A stretch of 64,000 nt of DNA. Origin: a virus. The DNA lies in the IMG/VR virus record IMGVR_UViG_3300049847_000198, positions 1 through 64,000 of that record; one strand, given 5' to 3'. The position numbers and the translations under genes are program-made. The notes below the pieces were generated by a model, which was not told the DNA's origin, did not search any database, and saw nothing but the letters and a program-made list of their open reading frames with translations. Shown here piece after piece: positions 5,738 through 55,774 of the stretch; the first letter of the stretch is position 1, and every line of letters starts with the position of its first letter.

Positions 5738-6013
5738 ATGCTCAAGTTACTCGCTGCCGCATTGATTGCCTTGGTCTCGTGTAACGCCGAAGCCGGAGTT
5801 CGTTCTGGAAAGACTTCGCCAATCTATCCGTATCCTGGCGGGCCGCAGCCGGTGCGTTGCCACTACGAAACAAGTCTTGTCGATCAGTTAGTCGAAGTCA
5901 CTTACGTTGACGCTTGCGGGCGAATCGGCGTGTATTACTACTGGCGTCGAGTTCAGAAGCTAGTCCGTGTCTGCGAGCCAACTCACAGATACCACATCCT
6001 CGACGAAGAGTAG
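5738..6013 (+). CDS. small secreted protein
   Basis: AAGGA RBS; signal peptide ending AEA. Confidence 0.6.
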   Translation: MLKLLAAALIALVSCNAEAGVRSGKTSPIYPYPGGPQPVRCHYETSLVDQLVEVTYVDACGRIGVYYYWRRVQKLVRVCEPTHRYHILDEE

Positions 6014-6018
6014 CCGTG

Positions 6019-6237
6019 ATGGGCGACGTTCTGAATGTTGTTGCGCTGGTAAAAAACAACACGCTACCAAGCGAGACGTACCTGTTTCTTTTCGACAACG
6101 AGAGCGTCACGCAGACTTACGATCAGGTCCAGATTCTCGCAGAAGACAAAGACCTGAATCTCAATCTCCGAGACGTCGTCTTGATCTGCAAAAAGATCAG
6201 GGAAATCGAGTCGCGGCACGAACCAGACTTCGAGTAG
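6019..6237 (+). CDS. conserved hypothetical protein resembling a Planctomycete-specific family
   Basis: NVVALVK...YLFLFD...A.D.DLNL...D...ICKKIR pattern, recognised from memory of Planctomycete proteins. Confidence 0.55.
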   Translation: MGDVLNVVALVKNNTLPSETYLFLFDNESVTQTYDQVQILAEDKDLNLNLRDVVLICKKIREIESRHEPDFE

Positions 6238-6239
6238 GC

Positions 6240-6268
6240 TTTACAATTCTTGTTCGTTATGGTAAAAT
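6240..6268 (+). promoter_or_regulatory. sigma70-type promoter with TGTTCGTTAT box in the spacer
   Basis: TTTACA-17-TAAAAT with extended TG. Confidence 0.65.
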
Positions 6269-6293
6269 CTCCACTCACAAGGAGACCGAGACC

Positions 6294-6560
6294 ATGAAAG
6301 CTTTTCTGTTCGCGATTGTCGTCGCGTTGTGTGTGCCGAGCGTTTCTTCGGCGCAGTATTACCCGCAGCTTTCGCAGTTGCGTCAAGCACCGTTTCGTAG
6401 TCAACCTCGATCCAACTACGGCGTTTTCGTTCAACGTGGGAATAGCGGATACTTCTTCCAAGGCAACAATCGCCGTCCGTCGTTTCAGACGTATCAACAA
6501 GGTCGATTCACTCACGTCATTCAAGGCAATCGCCGAGTCGGAACGATTTATCGTCGCTAG
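6294..6560 (+). CDS. small secreted Gln/Arg/Tyr-rich protein
   Basis: AGGAG RBS; MKAFLFAIVVALCVPSVSSA signal peptide. Confidence 0.7.
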   Translation: MKAFLFAIVVALCVPSVSSAQYYPQLSQLRQAPFRSQPRSNYGVFVQRGNSGYFFQGNNRRPSFQTYQQGRFTHVIQGNRRVGTIYRR

Positions 6561-6565
6561 TTCGC

Positions 6566-6709
6566 GGGCGCAAGGTGTTGCGGCAGCACTAACTGGATTG
6601 ATCGTCTAGTTGTCTTGGTCTGAAAAGAATGATTCTCGCGAGATAGTTCGCTGAATGTCCAAGATTACCGCCACCGGAGGGGAACCGGGTTCGATTCCCG
6701 GTGCGTCCA
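6566..6709 (+). ncRNA. atypical 144-nt tRNA-like RNA with G3-U70 pair and an oversized insertion
   Basis: acceptor GGGCGCA/TGCGTCC+A; T-arm CCGGG-TTCGATT-CCCGG; D-like GTGTTG/CAGCAC stem; extra helices. Confidence 0.65.
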
Positions 6710-6726
6710 CTTTGAAAGGCAACGGA

Positions 6727-6999
6727 ATGCGCGACGAATATGAAGACGAAATGAGTCGCTTCCACGCCATGAATCAAAAACCGGAAAGGCAGTCCGACTG
6801 GTTGTTGGACGTTTCCTGCAAGCCGTACCTTTTCATTCCGATGGACGGCGATGCGATTATTTTCGAGTCGTCCGTTCTGTCTGATAGGTGTCCCGGTCGC
6901 TTGCTTGATGTTTACCACTCAGGCGGCGAGAAGTTGGCACATCAATGGAAGATTAAGAATCCAACTTGGCACGAAGATAATCGACGATCAGCAAGGTAA
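6727..6999 (+). CDS. hypothetical protein
   Basis: GAAAGGC RBS then ATG, in frame with ORF 6655-6999. Confidence 0.55.
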   Translation: MRDEYEDEMSRFHAMNQKPERQSDWLLDVSCKPYLFIPMDGDAIIFESSVLSDRCPGRLLDVYHSGGEKLAHQWKIKNPTWHEDNRRSAR

Positions 7000-7002
7000 A
7001 CG

Positions 7003-8175
7003 ATGCCAGAATTCAACATGGATCATTGTTGCTCGACGCTTGCCAAAATCTTGGAGGTTGGGCAAGTTTTCGAGATTCGAGCCTTGGGTGTGCGGAGAAA
7101 AGGATCGCACGGCTCGATGTCTGCTTTCGGCGTGTTCGATTCAATCCTGAAGGCGACGGGGGAGGTGGATCGGTTCCTGAAAGAGTTCGATGCAAGCGGC
7201 GTCTATTTCACGCCAAATCCGCTGATTCCTGCGGTGCTGTCGCGACGCGCTAACACGTTCGATGTTGGCTCGAAGTCCGACACAATGGCGGGTGACAACG
7301 ACGTACTGAAAAGAAACTGGTTGCTGATCGACTTGGACCCGTGGAGACCTGCTGGCGTCACGGCGTCTGACGAAGAAGTCTGTCTAGCAAAAGAGTCGGC
7401 CAGAAAGCTATTTCCGTTATTGACAGTTCACTTGAATGCCGAACCGTTGGTCCTCGAAAGCGGAAACGGCGTCCACATGATGTTTCGCTGCGATCTGCCG
7501 CGAGAGGACGATGGGTTGATTTCTCGTTGCCTGATGGCTGTTGACCGGCTTCACGAAAAACTCGGAATCAAAGGCGTGAAGGTTGATCTCGTGAACTCGA
7601 ATCCTGCTCGAATCTGGAAACTTCCGGGTTCAGTCGCCAGAAAAGGCGACGAACTTCCTTCTCAGTCGCGTTTTCATCGTCAAGCGAGACTCCTGTACGC
7701 TCCAAAAGAGCTTCAGCCGATCTCTCGCATGAAACTTGAGTCGTTTGCCGTCCCAGCCAAGACTGAACACCCAAGACGCACGGAGACGCCTTCCGTGACG
7801 CCACGAGAGCAGACTGACGCTCGCGAGTGGCTTGGAACGCACGGAATTGCGATTTCGCACACAAAACCTTGGCATGACGCGAACGCTTATGTGCTTGCTG
7901 AGTGTCCGTTCGATTCAGGGCATCGTTCGCCAGACTCCATGCTGCTTCAGTTCTCGGACGGACGGATCGTTTTTTACTGCTCGCACAACTCGTGTCGCTC
8001 TAAGGGGTGGTTTGATTTTCGCGAGATGATTGAACCGGGTTGGCGTGAAAAACGAAAGCTGGTTCCGGGGTTCGGCAGTGAGGTTCAGAGCGAACGTCAG
8101 CGTCAGATTTTGCGTTCAATGATGAGGGAAGAGTGGCTTCTTTTTCGTGAAACATGCCAGAAAGGAAATCCATGA
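7003..8175 (+). CDS. archaeo-eukaryotic primase (prim-pol) with C-terminal Zn-binding domain
   Basis: GVYFTPNP, LLIDLD (motif I), SGNGVH (motif II), NPARIWKLPGS; CPF..H...C.H.SC. Confidence 0.8.
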   Translation: MPEFNMDHCCSTLAKILEVGQVFEIRALGVRRKGSHGSMSAFGVFDSILKATGEVDRFLKEFDASGVYFTPNPLIPAVLSRRANTFDVGSKSDTMAGDNDVLKRNWLLIDLDPWRPAGVTASDEEVCLAKESARKLFPLLTVHLNAEPLVLESGNGVHMMFRCDLPREDDGLISRCLMAVDRLHEKLGIKGVKVDLVNSNPARIWKLPGSVARKGDELPSQSRFHRQARLLYAPKELQPISRMKLESFAVPAKTEHPRRTETPSVTPREQTDAREWLGTHGIAISHTKPWHDANAYVLAECPFDSGHRSPDSMLLQFSDGRIVFYCSHNSCRSKGWFDFREMIEPGWREKRKLVPGFGSEVQSERQRQILRSMMREEWLLFRETCQKGNP

Positions 8176-31865: not shown

Positions 31866-31925
31866 TAGCCTAGATTCTGGCGAGACTCTCGGAGAGGGTA
31901 TGCAGTTCGATTCTGCACTAGGCTA
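31866..31925 (+). ncRNA. 60-nt mini tRNA-like element (acceptor plus T-arm)
   Basis: TAGCCTAG/CTAGGCTA stem; TGCAG-TTCGATT-CTGCA T-arm; small internal hairpin. Confidence 0.55.
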
Positions 31926-55048: not shown

Positions 55049-55111
55049 CACTAGCCAGACGGGATTGGTTCTGCCCACGAGTGCTCTTTCTGGCCTTGAG
55101 ACACATTAAAA

Positions 55112-55183
55112 TGCGACGTGACGGAATCGAACCGCCTTTCAGGGAGTTGAAAATCCCTTGCATGACCAATCTGCCAACGCCGC
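55112..55183 (-). tRNA. tRNA with Cys-like body and 8-nt anticodon loop UUUUCAAC (UCA or UUC reading)
   Basis: GCGGCGT/ACGTCGC+A; D-arm GCA-GATTGGTCA-TGC; AGGGA/TCCCT; T-arm GGCGG-TTCGATT-CCGTC. Confidence 0.85.
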
Positions 55184-55774
55184 ACGAACCTACCCGATCA
55201 CCCAATACTTCTCGCCCGTCAGCCAGTTATGAAAGTCTGGCGAACCTGGTCGATAGTGAAGAAACTTGTCGATCTTCTTTTCGAGTCGTGCCGCATCAAC
55301 CGGACGACTGCCTTTGTTCTCGACTTCCGAATACTTCCTGCCGCGAATGAACGCCAACGCGAGTCCCGCGTACCGAGACTCTTCTCGAAGTTCTCGAATG
55401 CGATGAGAGCGAAGCAGTTCGACGTAGATCAGTCCGCATCGCTTTTCTTCCTGACGGATCAGTCGCGACTCCGCAGCAAGCGATTTTGCGTTGATCCTGA
55501 GCCTATGGATCGCGAAGACTCTTTGGTTGTCCCATTCGCCGGGATGCGCGGCGGCGTAAACCAGTCGCCGTTCCTGACGCTTGGTTCGCTGCTTGATCTT
55601 CTTGCGTGCTCCGAACTGCGGATGACAGATGATGGCAGACGGAGCGAGTTGATTGTGGTTCTGGTTTTCGATGGTTGCTGTGGTCATATCGTTTTCCTTG
55701 GAATTGAAACCTGAGATGGAAGAAAGAAACGTACCGTCGAACACTTCAGGAATCACGGCGGACCTCTCGCGTAT

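What the first reader, a model, noticed from the sequence alone, without database searches (positions are those of the whole stretch)
6566..6709. 144-nt tRNA-like RNA with alanine identity and a large structured insertion
Seen: 7-bp acceptor with G3-U70 and A73, canonical T-arm, a 6-bp D-like stem with a tiny loop, a 7-bp stem around TTGATCG, and about 70 extra nt including a TCTTGG/CCAAGA-closed domain. Known: G3-U70 is the AlaRS determinant used by tRNA-Ala and tmRNA; long D-stems occur in tRNA-Sec-like species. It is too long for a tRNA and too short for tmRNA. Inference: a mini-tmRNA-like RNA, a mistranslating tRNA, an intron-containing tRNA or a decoy.
Basis: partly seen in the sequence, partly recalled or inferred. 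Interest (0 to 1): 0.7.

Follow-up and report, generated by a model that had tools for sequence, protein, structure and literature searches.

The report
Phage tRNA-shaped RNA with large insert
An uncultured 112-kb phage carries, between two early genes, a 144-base RNA gene shaped like a tRNA, with an alanine-type acceptor end and a 72-base extra domain. It looks real, but it resembles the long-known and still unexplained tRNA-like stable RNAs of phages, not a working tRNA or a tmRNA.

Summary
Window 6566-6709 (+) folds into a 7-bp acceptor (G3-U70, A73), a GG-loop D-like hairpin, a 7-bp stem with loop UUGAUCG, a 54-nt domain closed by GUCUUGG/CCAAGAU, and a consensus T-arm. None of these five helices has a mismatch. 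It fills the gap between two genes of one promoter-driven early unit in an IMG/VR phage record.

It is not a standard tRNA: ARAGORN default and Rfam both miss it. It is not a tmRNA: there is no UCGAC/GGAC signature, pseudoknot or conserved tag frame, and the record lacks SmpB. It is not a Y RNA. ARAGORN calls it a tRNA only after about 50-72 nt at the variable-loop position are deleted in silico.

No homologue could be retrieved, so there is no covariation or expression evidence for this RNA.

Unrelated phages carry analogous closed 120-145-nt tRNA-like RNAs. Examples are a 134-nt family in 71 gut viral contigs and T4 rnaC. A G3-C70 control scan finds such elements too, so alanine identity is not a shared hallmark.

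Best reading: a tRNA-like stable RNA and processing signal, matured by host tRNA enzymes and probably chargeable with alanine. It is a new variant of a known but unexplained kind.

The parts
6240..6268 (+). Promoter-like site TTTACA-17-TAAAAT with TG extension. Probable start of the transcript that carries the element.
   Evidence: 10 of 12 consensus matches, TG before the -10; sequence. Consensus match only, not shown to be active.
6295..6560 (+). Upstream 88-aa ORF with a hydrophobic N-terminus (signal-peptide-like) and RBS AAGGAGA. Its stop codon lies 5 nt before the element.
   Evidence: No Pfam or PHROG hit for the longer reading 5967-6560.
6566..6709 (+). The whole tRNA-shaped RNA, called E1 here: 144 nt to the discriminator A73. 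No CCA is encoded; the next bases are CTTTG.
   Evidence: ARAGORN calls it only with -i. Model R1 finds no other copy in the record.
6566..6572 (+). Acceptor 5' strand GGGCGCA.
   Evidence: 7/7 pairs with 6702-6708, G3-U70.
6574..6590 (+). D-like hairpin: 7 bp with a CGG loop, or a 4-bp D-stem with the 7-nt loop UGCGGCA. A8 and U14 stand where tRNAs have U8 and A14. Bases 6574-6583 can instead pair with 6668-6675 in a P2-like long-range helix.
   Evidence: Constrained folds give -53.2 kcal/mol for the local hairpin and -50.3 kcal/mol for the long-range helix.
6591..6611 (+). Anticodon-like arm: 7-bp stem with the 7-nt loop UUGAUCG. The formal anticodon is GAU, position 37 is C, and the stem is 2 bp longer than in tRNAs.
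   Evidence: In the deletion scan 83 of 152 ARAGORN calls are tRNA-Ile(gat).
6612..6665 (+). 54-nt inserted domain: 7-bp closing stem GUCUUGG/CCAAGAU, an A-rich internal loop, inner 4-bp and 5-bp helices, and the 10-nt palindrome TCTCGCGAGA at 6634-6643.
6666..6684 (+). 19-nt linker UACCGCCACCGGAGGGGAA: a weak variable-arm-like hairpin. The motif CGGAG.GGG.A recurs before the T-arm of the second element at 31866-31925.
6685..6701 (+). T-arm CCGGG-UUCGAUU-CCCGG.
6702..6709 (+). Acceptor 3' strand UGCGUCC plus the discriminator A73.
   Evidence: Natural tRNAs with this 3' strand and a GGGCGCA 5' strand are tRNA-Ala.
6714..6999 (+). RBS GAAAGG (6714-6719) and the downstream 90-aa gene starting at ATG 6727. 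The AEP primase-like gene follows at 7003-8175.
   Evidence: A 92-aa relative (P0100, 77% identity) starts at the same Met, so 6655-6726 is not coding.

Best explanation
E1 is a genuine phage-encoded, tRNA-shaped non-coding RNA. It is neither a decoding tRNA nor a tmRNA.

Proposed mechanism:
1. It is transcribed as part of an early polycistronic unit: promoter-like site 6240-6268, an 88-aa secreted-type ORF, E1, a 90-aa ORF, then a primase-like gene.
2. Its perfect acceptor/T-arm minihelix and GG-loop 'elbow' make it a substrate for the host tRNA-maturation enzymes. RNase P would cut at G1. RNase Z or exonucleases would cut after A73. The CCA-adding enzyme would follow, because no CCA is encoded.
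3. Excision cuts the operon transcript between the two genes (punctuation) and releases a stable RNA of about 144 nt.
4. The released RNA carries what AlaRS needs (G3-U70, G2-C71, A73), so it is probably chargeable with alanine.
5. Its lower half would keep it out of normal decoding: a 7-bp anticodon-like stem, C37, and a 72-nt two-hairpin insertion at the variable-loop position.

What is shown: the structure, the gene context, and the absence of tRNA, tmRNA and Y-RNA family membership. What is inferred: processing, charging and stability.
For: - Structure: five mismatch-free helices and a consensus T-loop.
- Context: the element exactly fills a non-coding gap inside a co-directional gene string with an upstream promoter-like site. 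The downstream start at 6727 is confirmed by a 77%-identical relative.
- Second element in the same phage: 31866-31925 keeps only a perfect 7-bp acceptor, a T-arm with the same UUCGAUU loop and one hairpin. It too lies between a stop codon and the next RBS. The acceptor/T minihelix is what the two elements share, and it is the part that RNase P, RNase Z and the CCA-adding enzyme recognise (established tRNA biochemistry).
- No encoded CCA: neither element nor the true tRNA at 55111-55184 encodes CCA.
- tRNA-like layout: ARAGORN accepts the D-arm, anticodon arm, T-arm and acceptor as a tRNA once the variable-region insert is deleted in silico. Only 4 of 300 interior shuffles do as well.
- Analogues in unrelated phages:
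  - T4 rnaC, annotated 'small, stable RNA; species 1 RNA', is 139 nt and has the T-arm CCGGG-UUCGAAU-CCCGG.
  - A 134-nt family occurs in 71 IMG/VR contigs and one Bacteroides MAG. It sits between genes of a replication module and shows a compensatory U-A/C-G change in the T-stem.
  - Further closed 120-133-nt elements turned up in pattern scans. 7/7 acceptor closure occurred in 6 of 11 and 4 of 11 unexplained hits, against about 5% expected by chance.
- Alanine acceptor: natural tRNAs with the acceptor GGGCGCA/UGCGUCC-A are tRNA-Ala.
Against: - No homologue of E1 itself was found, so there is no covariation support.
- The fold z-score is only -2.1.
- 12% of interior shuffles give some ARAGORN call in the deletion scan.
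- Punctuation alone does not explain three extra perfect hairpins.
- An alternative long-range helix (6574-6583 with 6668-6675) is within 3 kcal/mol of the tRNA-like fold, so the D-like hairpin is not certain.
- The host, and therefore its processing enzymes, is unknown.
- The phage record carries no CCA-adding enzyme, so maturation must rely on the host.
Confidence: 0.5

Rival explanations
1. The released RNA is the point. It acts in trans as a tRNA mimic, charged with alanine or not. Possible roles are a decoy for host tRNA-targeting defence nucleases or acceptor-end-modifying toxins, a sponge for AlaRS, EF-Tu or CCA-adding enzyme, or an alanine donor for a non-ribosomal reaction. The idiosyncratic lower hairpins would bind a partner.
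For: - The acceptor carries the full alanine set, and natural tRNAs with the same acceptor are tRNA-Ala.
- Three extra mismatch-free hairpins exceed what a processing signal needs.
- Analogous long tRNA-like RNAs recur in unrelated phages and are conserved as independent modules with mosaic flanks.
Against: - G3-U70 is not a shared hallmark. A G3-C70 control scan finds comparable elements, and the L293/L305/L309/L312 family has both states.
- The second element in this phage has C3-G70.
- There is no conserved neighbouring protein across loci.
- No partner was identified.
Confidence: 0.2
2. It is a decayed or rearranged tRNA gene, or a partly fortuitous structure, with no function of its own: a tRNA that suffered an insertion in the variable region.
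For: - No homologue was found in any searchable collection.
- The fold z-score is modest.
- The D-arm and position 37 are non-canonical.
- Standard tools do not call it.
- The phage also holds a truncated-looking tRNA-like element.
Against: - All 33 pairs of five helices are intact, including those of the insert. Decay should break pairs.
- The element sits in a tightly packed phage genome, with 95.6% covered by ORFs of at least 100 codons.
- Both tRNA-like elements keep perfect acceptor and T helices.
- Only 4 of 300 interior shuffles match the real sequence in the deletion scan.
Confidence: 0.15
3. It is a working decoder. Either it is a tRNA with a giant variable arm that reads AUC/AUU with alanine (programmed mistranslation), or it is a tRNA whose insert is removed after transcription.
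For: - ARAGORN calls tRNA-Ile(gat) in 83 of 152 successful in-silico deletions.
- With the intron option it calls tRNA-Phe(gaa) with a 53-nt intron.
- The acceptor is of alanine type.
Against: - The anticodon stem is 7 bp, 2 bp too long for the fixed acceptor-to-anticodon distance. Position 37 is C where tRNAs have a purine, and position 8 is A.
- ARAGORN's intron sits inside the anticodon and leaves a 4-bp stem and an unstructured 22-nt variable region.
- The insert is too short for a group I intron, and Rfam gives no intron hit.
- No splicing endonuclease, RtcB or RNA ligase is in the record.
- ARAGORN -i gives a spurious call about once per 750 kb of phage DNA.
Confidence: 0.07
4. It is a mini-tmRNA: a tRNA-like domain on a P2-like stalk that is alanylated and enters stalled ribosomes with SmpB.
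For: - It has G3-U70, A73 and a T-arm as in tmRNA.
- A P2-like helix (6574-6583 with 6668-6675) is within 3 kcal/mol of the tRNA-like fold.
- Model R1 scores 34 bits on the last 144 nt of a Planctomycetota tmRNA, sharing a UACCG motif and an A-rich stretch.
- Phage tmRNAs use nearly the same acceptor, GGGCGCG.
Against: - The Rfam tmRNA and permuted-tmRNA models match only the 17-nt T-arm (11 and 13 bits against a cut-off of 47).
- ARAGORN -m does not call it.
- The 5' UCGAC and 3' GGAC signature, present in all seven tmRNAs compared, is absent.
- There is no pseudoknot, and no tag frame ending in a hydrophobic tail.
- SmpB is not encoded.
- The 34-bit match pairs tmRNA segments that are not paired in the real tmRNA structure.
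Confidence: 0.03
5. It is a DNA-level element: an attP core carrying the 3' end of a host tRNA or tmRNA gene, or an origin or operator region in the replication module.
For: - Phage attachment sites often copy tRNA or tmRNA 3' ends.
- The element lies next to replication genes.
- It holds a 10-nt palindrome.
Against: - No tyrosine integrase is found in the record.
- An att core needs no matching 5' acceptor strand, yet the strand pairs 7/7 including the G-U.
- A consensus T-loop and nested perfect helices point to an RNA.
Confidence: 0.03

Closest known systems
Phage T4 species 1 RNA (rnaC), a 139-nt small stable RNA in the tRNA gene cluster
   Same: - It is about 140 nt and phage-encoded.
- Its T-arm is nearly identical: CCGGG-UUCGAAU-CCCGG.
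- Its 5' and 3' ends pair in an acceptor-like stem, and long extra hairpins sit between them.
- Its function is unknown. That RNase P processes it is my recollection of the 1970s literature and was not checked here.
   Different: - The T4 acceptor has two U-U mismatches and no G3-U70.
- It has no D-like or anticodon-like arm.
- It lies in a tRNA cluster, not between protein genes.
- There is no sequence homology beyond the T-arm: R1 scores 16 bits, E = 0.05.
134-nt tRNA-like family of gut (Bacteroides-type) phages, found here (L142 and L203-L273)
   Same: - It shares the 5' GGGCGCAAG, the UUCGAUU T-loop and the UGCGUCCAC 3' end.
- It has a GG-loop hairpin after the acceptor and three further hairpins before the T-arm.
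- It holds a 10-nt palindrome in a loop.
- It lies between co-directional genes of a replication or recombination module.
   Different: - The identical acceptor is largely due to how I searched.
- The interior shows no sequence similarity (z = -0.6).
- The first hairpin starts at position 8.
- It has no 7-nt anticodon-like loop.
- A conserved small hairpin precedes it.
- Homology with E1 is not shown.
tRNA-Ala
   Same: - The acceptor GGGCGCA/UGCGUCC with G3-U70, G2-C71 and A73 is used by six natural tRNA-Ala genes.
- It shares the consensus T-arm and GG in the D-loop.
   Different: - E1 is 144 nt against 73-76 nt.
- It has A8 instead of U8 and a non-canonical D-arm.
- Its anticodon-like stem is 7 bp, and the formal anticodon is GAU, not NGC.
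- It has a 72-nt variable-region insert.
- ARAGORN default and Rfam RF00005 do not call it.
tmRNA (tRNA-like domain)
   Same: Alanine-type acceptor, T-arm, and a possible long-range helix after the acceptor.
   Different: - It has no UCGAC/GGAC signature, pseudoknots or tag frame.
- It is less than half the length of a tmRNA.
- It falls below every tmRNA model threshold.
t-elements of plant mitochondria and mascRNA-type tRNA-like processing signals
   Same: A tRNA-like acceptor/T-arm module embedded in a longer transcript that would direct RNase P and RNase Z cuts and so define mRNA ends. This is the mechanism proposed here (a t-element paper is listed: PMC1920247).
   Different: - Those are eukaryotic or organellar systems with no sequence relation to E1.
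- E1 is much more elaborate than a minimal t-element.
- Processing has not been tested.
Bacterial Y RNA YrlA (tRNA-like module bound to Ro/Rsr)
   Same: A non-coding RNA of about 100-140 nt with T-arm and D-arm mimicry. Some are phage-encoded (PMC4201824, listed).
   Different: - In YrlA the free ends form the Ro-binding stem and the acceptor-like stem is loop-closed (from memory). In E1 the free ends form the acceptor.
- There is no Rfam hit.
- No TROVE/Ro or RtcB gene is in the record.

Membership tests
Canonical tRNA (Rfam RF00005 / ARAGORN default) | Scores above threshold with tRNA covariance or heuristic models | tested here: not met
   There is no RF00005 match even at E <= 10 with permissive filters. 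ARAGORN default does not call it. The true tRNA in the window scores 48 bits.
Canonical tRNA (Rfam RF00005 / ARAGORN default) | 7-bp acceptor, 5-bp T-stem with a T-loop of UUCRANY type, GG in the D-loop | tested here: met
Canonical tRNA (Rfam RF00005 / ARAGORN default) | 5-bp anticodon stem, 7-nt loop with U33 and purine 37; length 70-95 nt | tested here: not met
   The stem is 7 bp, the loop is UUGAUCG with C at position 37, and the total length is 144 nt.
tRNA-Ala identity set | G3-U70 in a 7-bp acceptor helix, with A73 and G2-C71 | tested here: met
   Six natural tRNA-Ala genes carry the same acceptor. Actual charging by AlaRS cannot be tested with these tools.
tmRNA (RF00023 / RF04321) | Match to a tmRNA covariance model, or an ARAGORN tmRNA call | tested here: not met
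   Only the 17-nt T-arm matches, at 11.2 and 12.9 bits against a cut-off of 47. There is no ARAGORN tmRNA call.
tmRNA (RF00023 / RF04321) | tRNA-like-domain signature: 5' ...UCGAC after the acceptor and GGAC directly before the T-stem | tested here: not met
   It is present in all seven tmRNAs compared. E1 has AGGUGUUG... at the 5' side and ...GGGGAA before the T-stem.
tmRNA (RF00023 / RF04321) | Tag reading frame with a resume codon and stop, preceded by a pseudoknot | tested here: not met
   By reading the sequence, the longest frame in the insert is 13 codons ending ...EIVR-stop. There is no pseudoknot and no hydrophobic tail (sequence).
tmRNA (RF00023 / RF04321) | Long P2 helix joining the tRNA-like and mRNA-like domains | tested here: inconclusive
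   An 8-bp helix with a 2-nt bulge (6574-6583 with 6668-6675) is possible at -50.3 kcal/mol, against -53.2 for the local hairpin.
Intron-containing tRNA (group I, or archaeal bulge-helix-bulge type) | Removing one contiguous segment at a known intron site gives a canonical tRNA | tested here: not met
   Deletions that give a tRNA call lie mostly in the variable region. ARAGORN's anticodon-loop solution places the intron inside the anticodon and has a weak 4-bp stem.
Intron-containing tRNA (group I, or archaeal bulge-helix-bulge type) | Self-splicing core, or splicing endonuclease and ligase available | tested here: not met
   Rfam gives no intron hit. The insert is 72 nt. The record has no tRNA_int_endo, RtcB or RNA_ligase. 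Host enzymes are unknown.
Y RNA / YrlA | Rfam match and an associated Ro (TROVE) protein | tested here: not met
Phage tRNA-like stable RNAs (T4 rnaC type; a loose kind, no formal family) | Phage-encoded RNA of about 120-145 nt whose ends pair next to a consensus T-arm, with non-tRNA hairpins between | tested here: met
   E1. T4 rnaC. Other phage examples.
Phage tRNA-like stable RNAs (T4 rnaC type; a loose kind, no formal family) | Accumulates as a discrete stable RNA processed by tRNA enzymes | not testable with these tools
   No RNA data are available for this phage.

The most novel reading that the evidence does not exclude
E1 represents an unrecognised class of phage 'expanded tRNA mimics'. 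Host AlaRS would charge these RNAs with alanine. The phage would use them in trans as decoys that absorb host tRNA-targeting immunity, or as ribosome- or SmpB-directed agents. The species-specific lower hairpins would provide target or partner specificity. This would also give a function to the 50-year-old orphan T4 species 1 RNA.
Probability: 0.15. Interest if true: 0.8.

Novelty: new variant of a known kind. Interest (0 to 1): 0.5.

Why it matters
Phage tRNA-like stable RNAs have been known since T4 species 1 RNA, and no function has been assigned to them. Standard annotation misses them because they fail tRNA and tmRNA models.

This element is an unusually complete example. It has a full cloverleaf, a 72-nt structured insert and a textbook alanine acceptor, and it sits inside an early operon.

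The pattern scans it prompted show that closed 120-145-nt tRNA-like RNAs recur in many unrelated phages. One is a conserved 134-nt family in 71 gut viral contigs.

If these RNAs are processed and charged as predicted, they could act as a general phage device. Candidate roles are mRNA punctuation, manipulation of the host tRNA machinery, or evasion of tRNA-directed defence. The gut-phage family offers a tractable system in which to test that.

Tried and rejected
Homologues of E1:
- GenBank phages: blastn found only T-arm-sized hits.
- IMG/VR: the exact 30-mer of the 3' end gave nothing. The primase-like neighbour and the portal protein as single queries gave nothing.
- A primase alignment gave 80 distant loci (30-35% identity). 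None held the element by ARAGORN -i or by model R1.
- JGI metagenomes: a pattern scan gave 0 hits.
- A sample of 151 Planctomycetota genomes searched with R1 gave one hit, which turned out to be the 3' part of a normal tmRNA.

Expression:
- The run search listed one DNA holder, probably the source sample. No RNA holder was listed.
- Laying that run only reproduced the assembly.

Homology with the gut-phage family and other long tRNA-like RNAs:
- Rejected for lack of interior similarity.
- R1 scores of 16-27 bits are driven by the acceptor and T-arm.
- Neighbouring proteins are unrelated.

Other points:
- Repeats of the insert elsewhere in the genome: none.
- A third tRNA-like candidate at 147-279: rejected because of a poor T-stem and overlap with an ORF.
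- Genome-wide stop-codon recoding as a context for odd tRNAs: rejected, because the standard code already gives 95.6% ORF cover.
- Literature: nothing specific to this RNA was found. One survey reports unnamed tRNA-like candidates in IMG/VR (PMC10690425), and its supplements are not held.
Full report
WHERE IT LIES. The window is the first 64 kb of a 112,081-bp linear IMG/VR virus record, estimated 79% complete. It comes from a freshwater-sediment metagenome. The record encodes an HK97-type capsid protein and a portal protein. It reads well in the standard code: ORFs of at least 100 codons cover 95.6%. The genes around the finding have no Pfam or PHROG family. The exception is the 390-aa protein at 7003-8175, whose relatives carry D5_N or AAA_25 domains and are named primase/helicase.

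THE OBSERVATION. The element, called E1 here, spans 6566-6709 on the + strand.
- The acceptor GGGCGCA/UGCGUCC is 7 bp with G3-U70, followed by A73.
- The hairpin at 6574-6590 has 7 bp and a CGG loop. It can also be drawn as a 4-bp D-stem with the loop UGCGGCA carrying GG. In that drawing A8 and U14 stand where tRNAs have U8 and A14.
- A 7-bp stem with the 7-nt loop UUGAUCG lies at 6591-6611.
- A 54-nt domain at 6612-6665 is closed by GUCUUGG/CCAAGAU.
- A 19-nt linker follows, then the T-arm CCGGG-UUCGAUU-CCCGG at 6685-6701.
None of the 33 pairs of these five helices is a mismatch. The MFE fold reproduces them at -54 kcal/mol, with z = -2.1 and 6 of 200 shuffles folding as well.

IS IT MORE THAN CHANCE? 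The 11-mer GGTTCGATTCC occurs in the 112-kb record only here and in the one true tRNA. I fixed the acceptor and T-arm, shuffled the interior, and repeated the ARAGORN deletion scan. Of 300 shuffles, 35 gave some tRNA call and 4 gave as many as the real sequence. A second assembly of the probable source run has the identical sequence in an 89.8-kb contig at about 51x depth. That rules out an assembly artefact but is not independent support. The significance of the upper half is good, and that of the interior arms is moderate.

WHAT STANDARD TOOLS SAY. ARAGORN default and Rfam at gathering thresholds call only the tRNA at 55111-55184. Rfam in permissive mode matches only the 17-nt T-arm, to tmRNA, permuted tmRNA and mascRNA, far below their thresholds. 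That solution puts the intron inside the anticodon, uses a 4-bp stem with a mismatch, and leaves a 22-nt unstructured variable region. The same option gave one clearly spurious call in about 750 kb of other phage DNA. A systematic deletion scan is more informative. Of 152 deletions that yield a default ARAGORN call, 83 give tRNA-Ile(gat), and these remove about 50-72 nt after position 46. E1 is therefore best described as a cloverleaf with a roughly 72-nt, two-hairpin insertion at the variable-loop position.

CONTEXT. A promoter-like site lies at 6240-6268 (TTTACA, 17 nt, TAAAAT, preceded by TG). It is followed by AAGGAGA and ATG 6295, which opens an 88-aa ORF with a hydrophobic N-terminus that stops at 6560. 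E1 starts 5 nt later. Five nt after E1 comes GAAAGG, then ATG 6727. A 92-aa relative from another metagenome, 77% identical, starts at the same Met, so 6655-6726 is not coding. E1 thus sits inside a co-directional early unit just upstream of replication genes. No terminator-like site follows it.

A SECOND ELEMENT IN THE SAME PHAGE. The region 31866-31925 has a perfect acceptor (AGCCUAG/CUAGGCU, then A), one 6-bp hairpin with a GGA loop, and a T-arm with the same UUCGAUU loop. It has no D-arm or anticodon arm. It also lies between a stop codon and the next RBS. It shares the motif CGGAG.GGG.A before the T-arm with E1. Its position 3:70 is C-G. What the two elements have in common is the acceptor/T minihelix and the intergenic position inside an operon.

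SEARCH FOR RELATIVES. Nothing was found in any of these searches:
- GenBank phages.
- IMG/VR by exact 3' 30-mer.
- IMG/VR by the primase-like or portal protein.
- 80 distant primase loci scanned with ARAGORN -i and with a covariance model R1 built from E1.
- JGI metagenomes by pattern.
The closest protein relatives come from Logan and ENA contigs. Covariation in E1 itself therefore could not be tested. This is the main weakness of any functional claim.

ALANINE IDENTITY. When the 5' strand is GGA(C/T)GCA, the genes are tRNA-Val (73), tRNA-Arg (13) or tRNA-Lys (11). When it is GGGCGCA, as in E1, all six are tRNA-Ala. The acceptor is therefore a bona fide natural alanine acceptor. By established knowledge, G3-U70 with A73 suffices for AlaRS even in minihelices. 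Actual charging is inferred, not shown.

ANALOGUES. One non-tRNA hit of that scan is L142:5813-5947 in a Bacteroides MAG. It is a 134-nt element with the same GGGCGCAAG start, the same T-loop and the same UGCGUCCAC end. It folds as acceptor, GG-loop hairpin, three more hairpins and T-arm (z = -3.5). A pattern scan then found it in 71 IMG/VR contigs of 7-67 kb, as 15 distinct sequences. Its T-stem shows a compensatory U-A/C-G change split 8:7, and there are several G-U to A-U or G-C changes. It travels as a module with a conserved small upstream hairpin between varying flanking genes. It lies between genes of a lambdoid replication and recombination module containing NinB, NinG, a helicase and DnaD/DnaC-like loaders. 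It matches no Rfam family and no GenBank phage.

The shared acceptor with E1 is largely a product of my search. The interiors show no similarity (z = -0.6) and the neighbouring proteins are unrelated. I therefore treat this family as an analogue, not a homologue.

A looser scan fixed GGGC...AG at the 5' end and GTCCA at the 3' end, with 85-115 nt between. It gave 32 hits: 13 explained by adjacent tRNAs, 8 that are 3' ends of phage tmRNAs, and 11 others. Six of those 11 close the acceptor 7/7, where about 5% is expected by chance: L280, L285, L290, L293, L297 and L305. L290 has the same layout as E1: a D-arm, a 7-bp stem with a 7-nt loop, a long variable domain and a T-arm.

The control scan with G3-C70 gave 15 hits: 4 tRNA-explained and 11 others. 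Four of those 11 close 7/7: L309, L312, L317 and L318. L309 and L312 belong to the same family as L293 and L305. Long closed tRNA-like RNAs are thus a recurrent phage feature, and G3-U70 is not specifically enriched among them.

T4 rnaC is annotated 'small, stable RNA; species 1 RNA' and is 139 nt. It has the T-arm CCGGG-UUCGAAU-CCCGG, an imperfect acceptor and long hairpins. It is the classical precedent, and no function is annotated for it.

tmRNA AND OTHER FAMILIES. R1 scored 34 bits on a Planctomycetota genome, but the hit is the last 144 nt of an ordinary tmRNA (RF00023, 169 bits). The alignment pairs segments that are not paired in tmRNA. All seven tmRNAs compared have UCGAC after the acceptor and GGAC before the T-stem. 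E1 has neither. E1 has no pseudoknot and no credible tag frame. An alternative P2-like helix (6574-6583 with 6668-6675) costs only about 3 kcal/mol more than the D-like hairpin, so a stalk-like architecture cannot be excluded. The phage record lacks SmpB, CCA-adding enzyme, Ro/TROVE, RtcB, RNA ligase, splicing endonuclease and tyrosine integrase. With 79% completeness, these absences are indicative only.

MECHANISM. I commit to the following, with about 0.5 confidence.
- E1 is transcribed within the early unit.
- Host RNase P recognises it and cuts at G6566.
- RNase Z or exonucleases, followed by the CCA-adding enzyme, mature the 3' end after A6709.
- Excision separates the upstream small-protein message from the replication-gene message and releases a stable RNA of about 144 nt.
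- That RNA can probably be alanylated, but its 7-bp anticodon-like stem, C37 and large insert keep it out of decoding.
The structure and context are shown. Every enzymatic step is inferred from what the acceptor/T-arm minihelix is known to recruit.

The extra perfect hairpins suggest that the released RNA has a further trans function as a mimic or decoy (about 0.2). Other rivals are a decayed tRNA (0.15), a decoder (0.07), a mini-tmRNA (0.03) and a DNA-level site (0.03).

VERDICT. The element is real and worth a follow-up, but it is an orphan. It is a new variant of the known, unexplained kind 'phage tRNA-like stable RNA'. I score interest at 0.5. The broader by-product may be the more useful lead: many unrelated phages, including a 71-contig gut family, encode such RNAs that all annotation tools miss.

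Noticed in passing
window 31866-31925 (+): A second, minimal tRNA-like element. It has a perfect 7-bp acceptor AGCCUAG/CUAGGCU plus A, one 6-bp hairpin with a GGA loop, and the T-arm UGCAG-UUCGAUU-CUGCA. It has no D-arm or anticodon arm. It lies between the stop codon of a small ORF and the next RBS. MFE is -21.4 kcal/mol, z = -1.7.
   Followed up: partly
window 55111-55184 (-): The only standard tRNA of the record (Rfam 48 bits) has an 8-nt anticodon loop, UUUUCAAC. ARAGORN reads 'ttca' (Glu|SeC?). It may be an opal-suppressor-like or quadruplet-reading tRNA. TGA is the commonest stop codon, and the standard code already gives 95.6% ORF cover, so there is no genome-wide recoding.
   Followed up: partly
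L142:5813-5947 (-) and L203-L273 (71 IMG/VR contigs): A conserved 134-nt tRNA-like RNA of gut (Bacteroides-type) phages. It has an alanine-type acceptor, a GG-loop hairpin, three more hairpins (one loop holds the palindrome AUUGCGCAAU) and a T-arm with a compensatory U-A/C-G change. A conserved hairpin GCCCGGAAAGACGGGC precedes it. It sits in a NinB/NinG/helicase-loader module. It is not in Rfam or in GenBank phages.
   Followed up: partly
L293:4815-4944, L305:1427-1556, L309:1203-1332, L312:89-218: A 130-nt tRNA-like family in gut phage contigs of 106-120 kb. In L293 and L305 it lies directly after a tRNA gene. A very long hairpin takes the place of the anticodon arm. Two members have G3-U70 and two have G3-C70, with the rest of the acceptor co-varying.
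   Followed up: partly
L285:8736-8866, L290:2097-2218, L297:1858-1981, L317:58-179, L318:176-308: Further orphan closed tRNA-like RNAs of 122-133 nt in unrelated viral contigs. L290 has the same layout as E1: a D-arm, a 7-bp stem with a 7-nt loop, a long variable domain and a T-arm. L285 is called tRNA-Ala(ggc) after a 53-nt in-silico deletion.
   Followed up: partly
window 6634-6643: A perfect 10-nt palindrome, TCTCGCGAGA, lies inside the inserted domain. The gut-phage analogue also shows a 10-nt palindrome in a loop. This could be a kissing-loop or protein-binding site, or coincidence: I estimate about 0.1 expected per element.
   Followed up: no
window 6240-6560 (+): A near-consensus extended -10 promoter (TTTACA-17-TGgTAAAAT) drives an 88-aa ORF with a signal-peptide-like N-terminus. 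The 197-aa ORF listed for 5967-6560 is probably an over-extension.
   Followed up: partly
L276, L279, L283, L284, L288, L292, L295, L299, L303: Many tRNA-rich IMG/VR contigs of about 45-160 kb encode full tmRNAs with their own tag peptides. Two are in permuted form. Several use the acceptor GGGCGCG or GGGCCNG.
   Followed up: no
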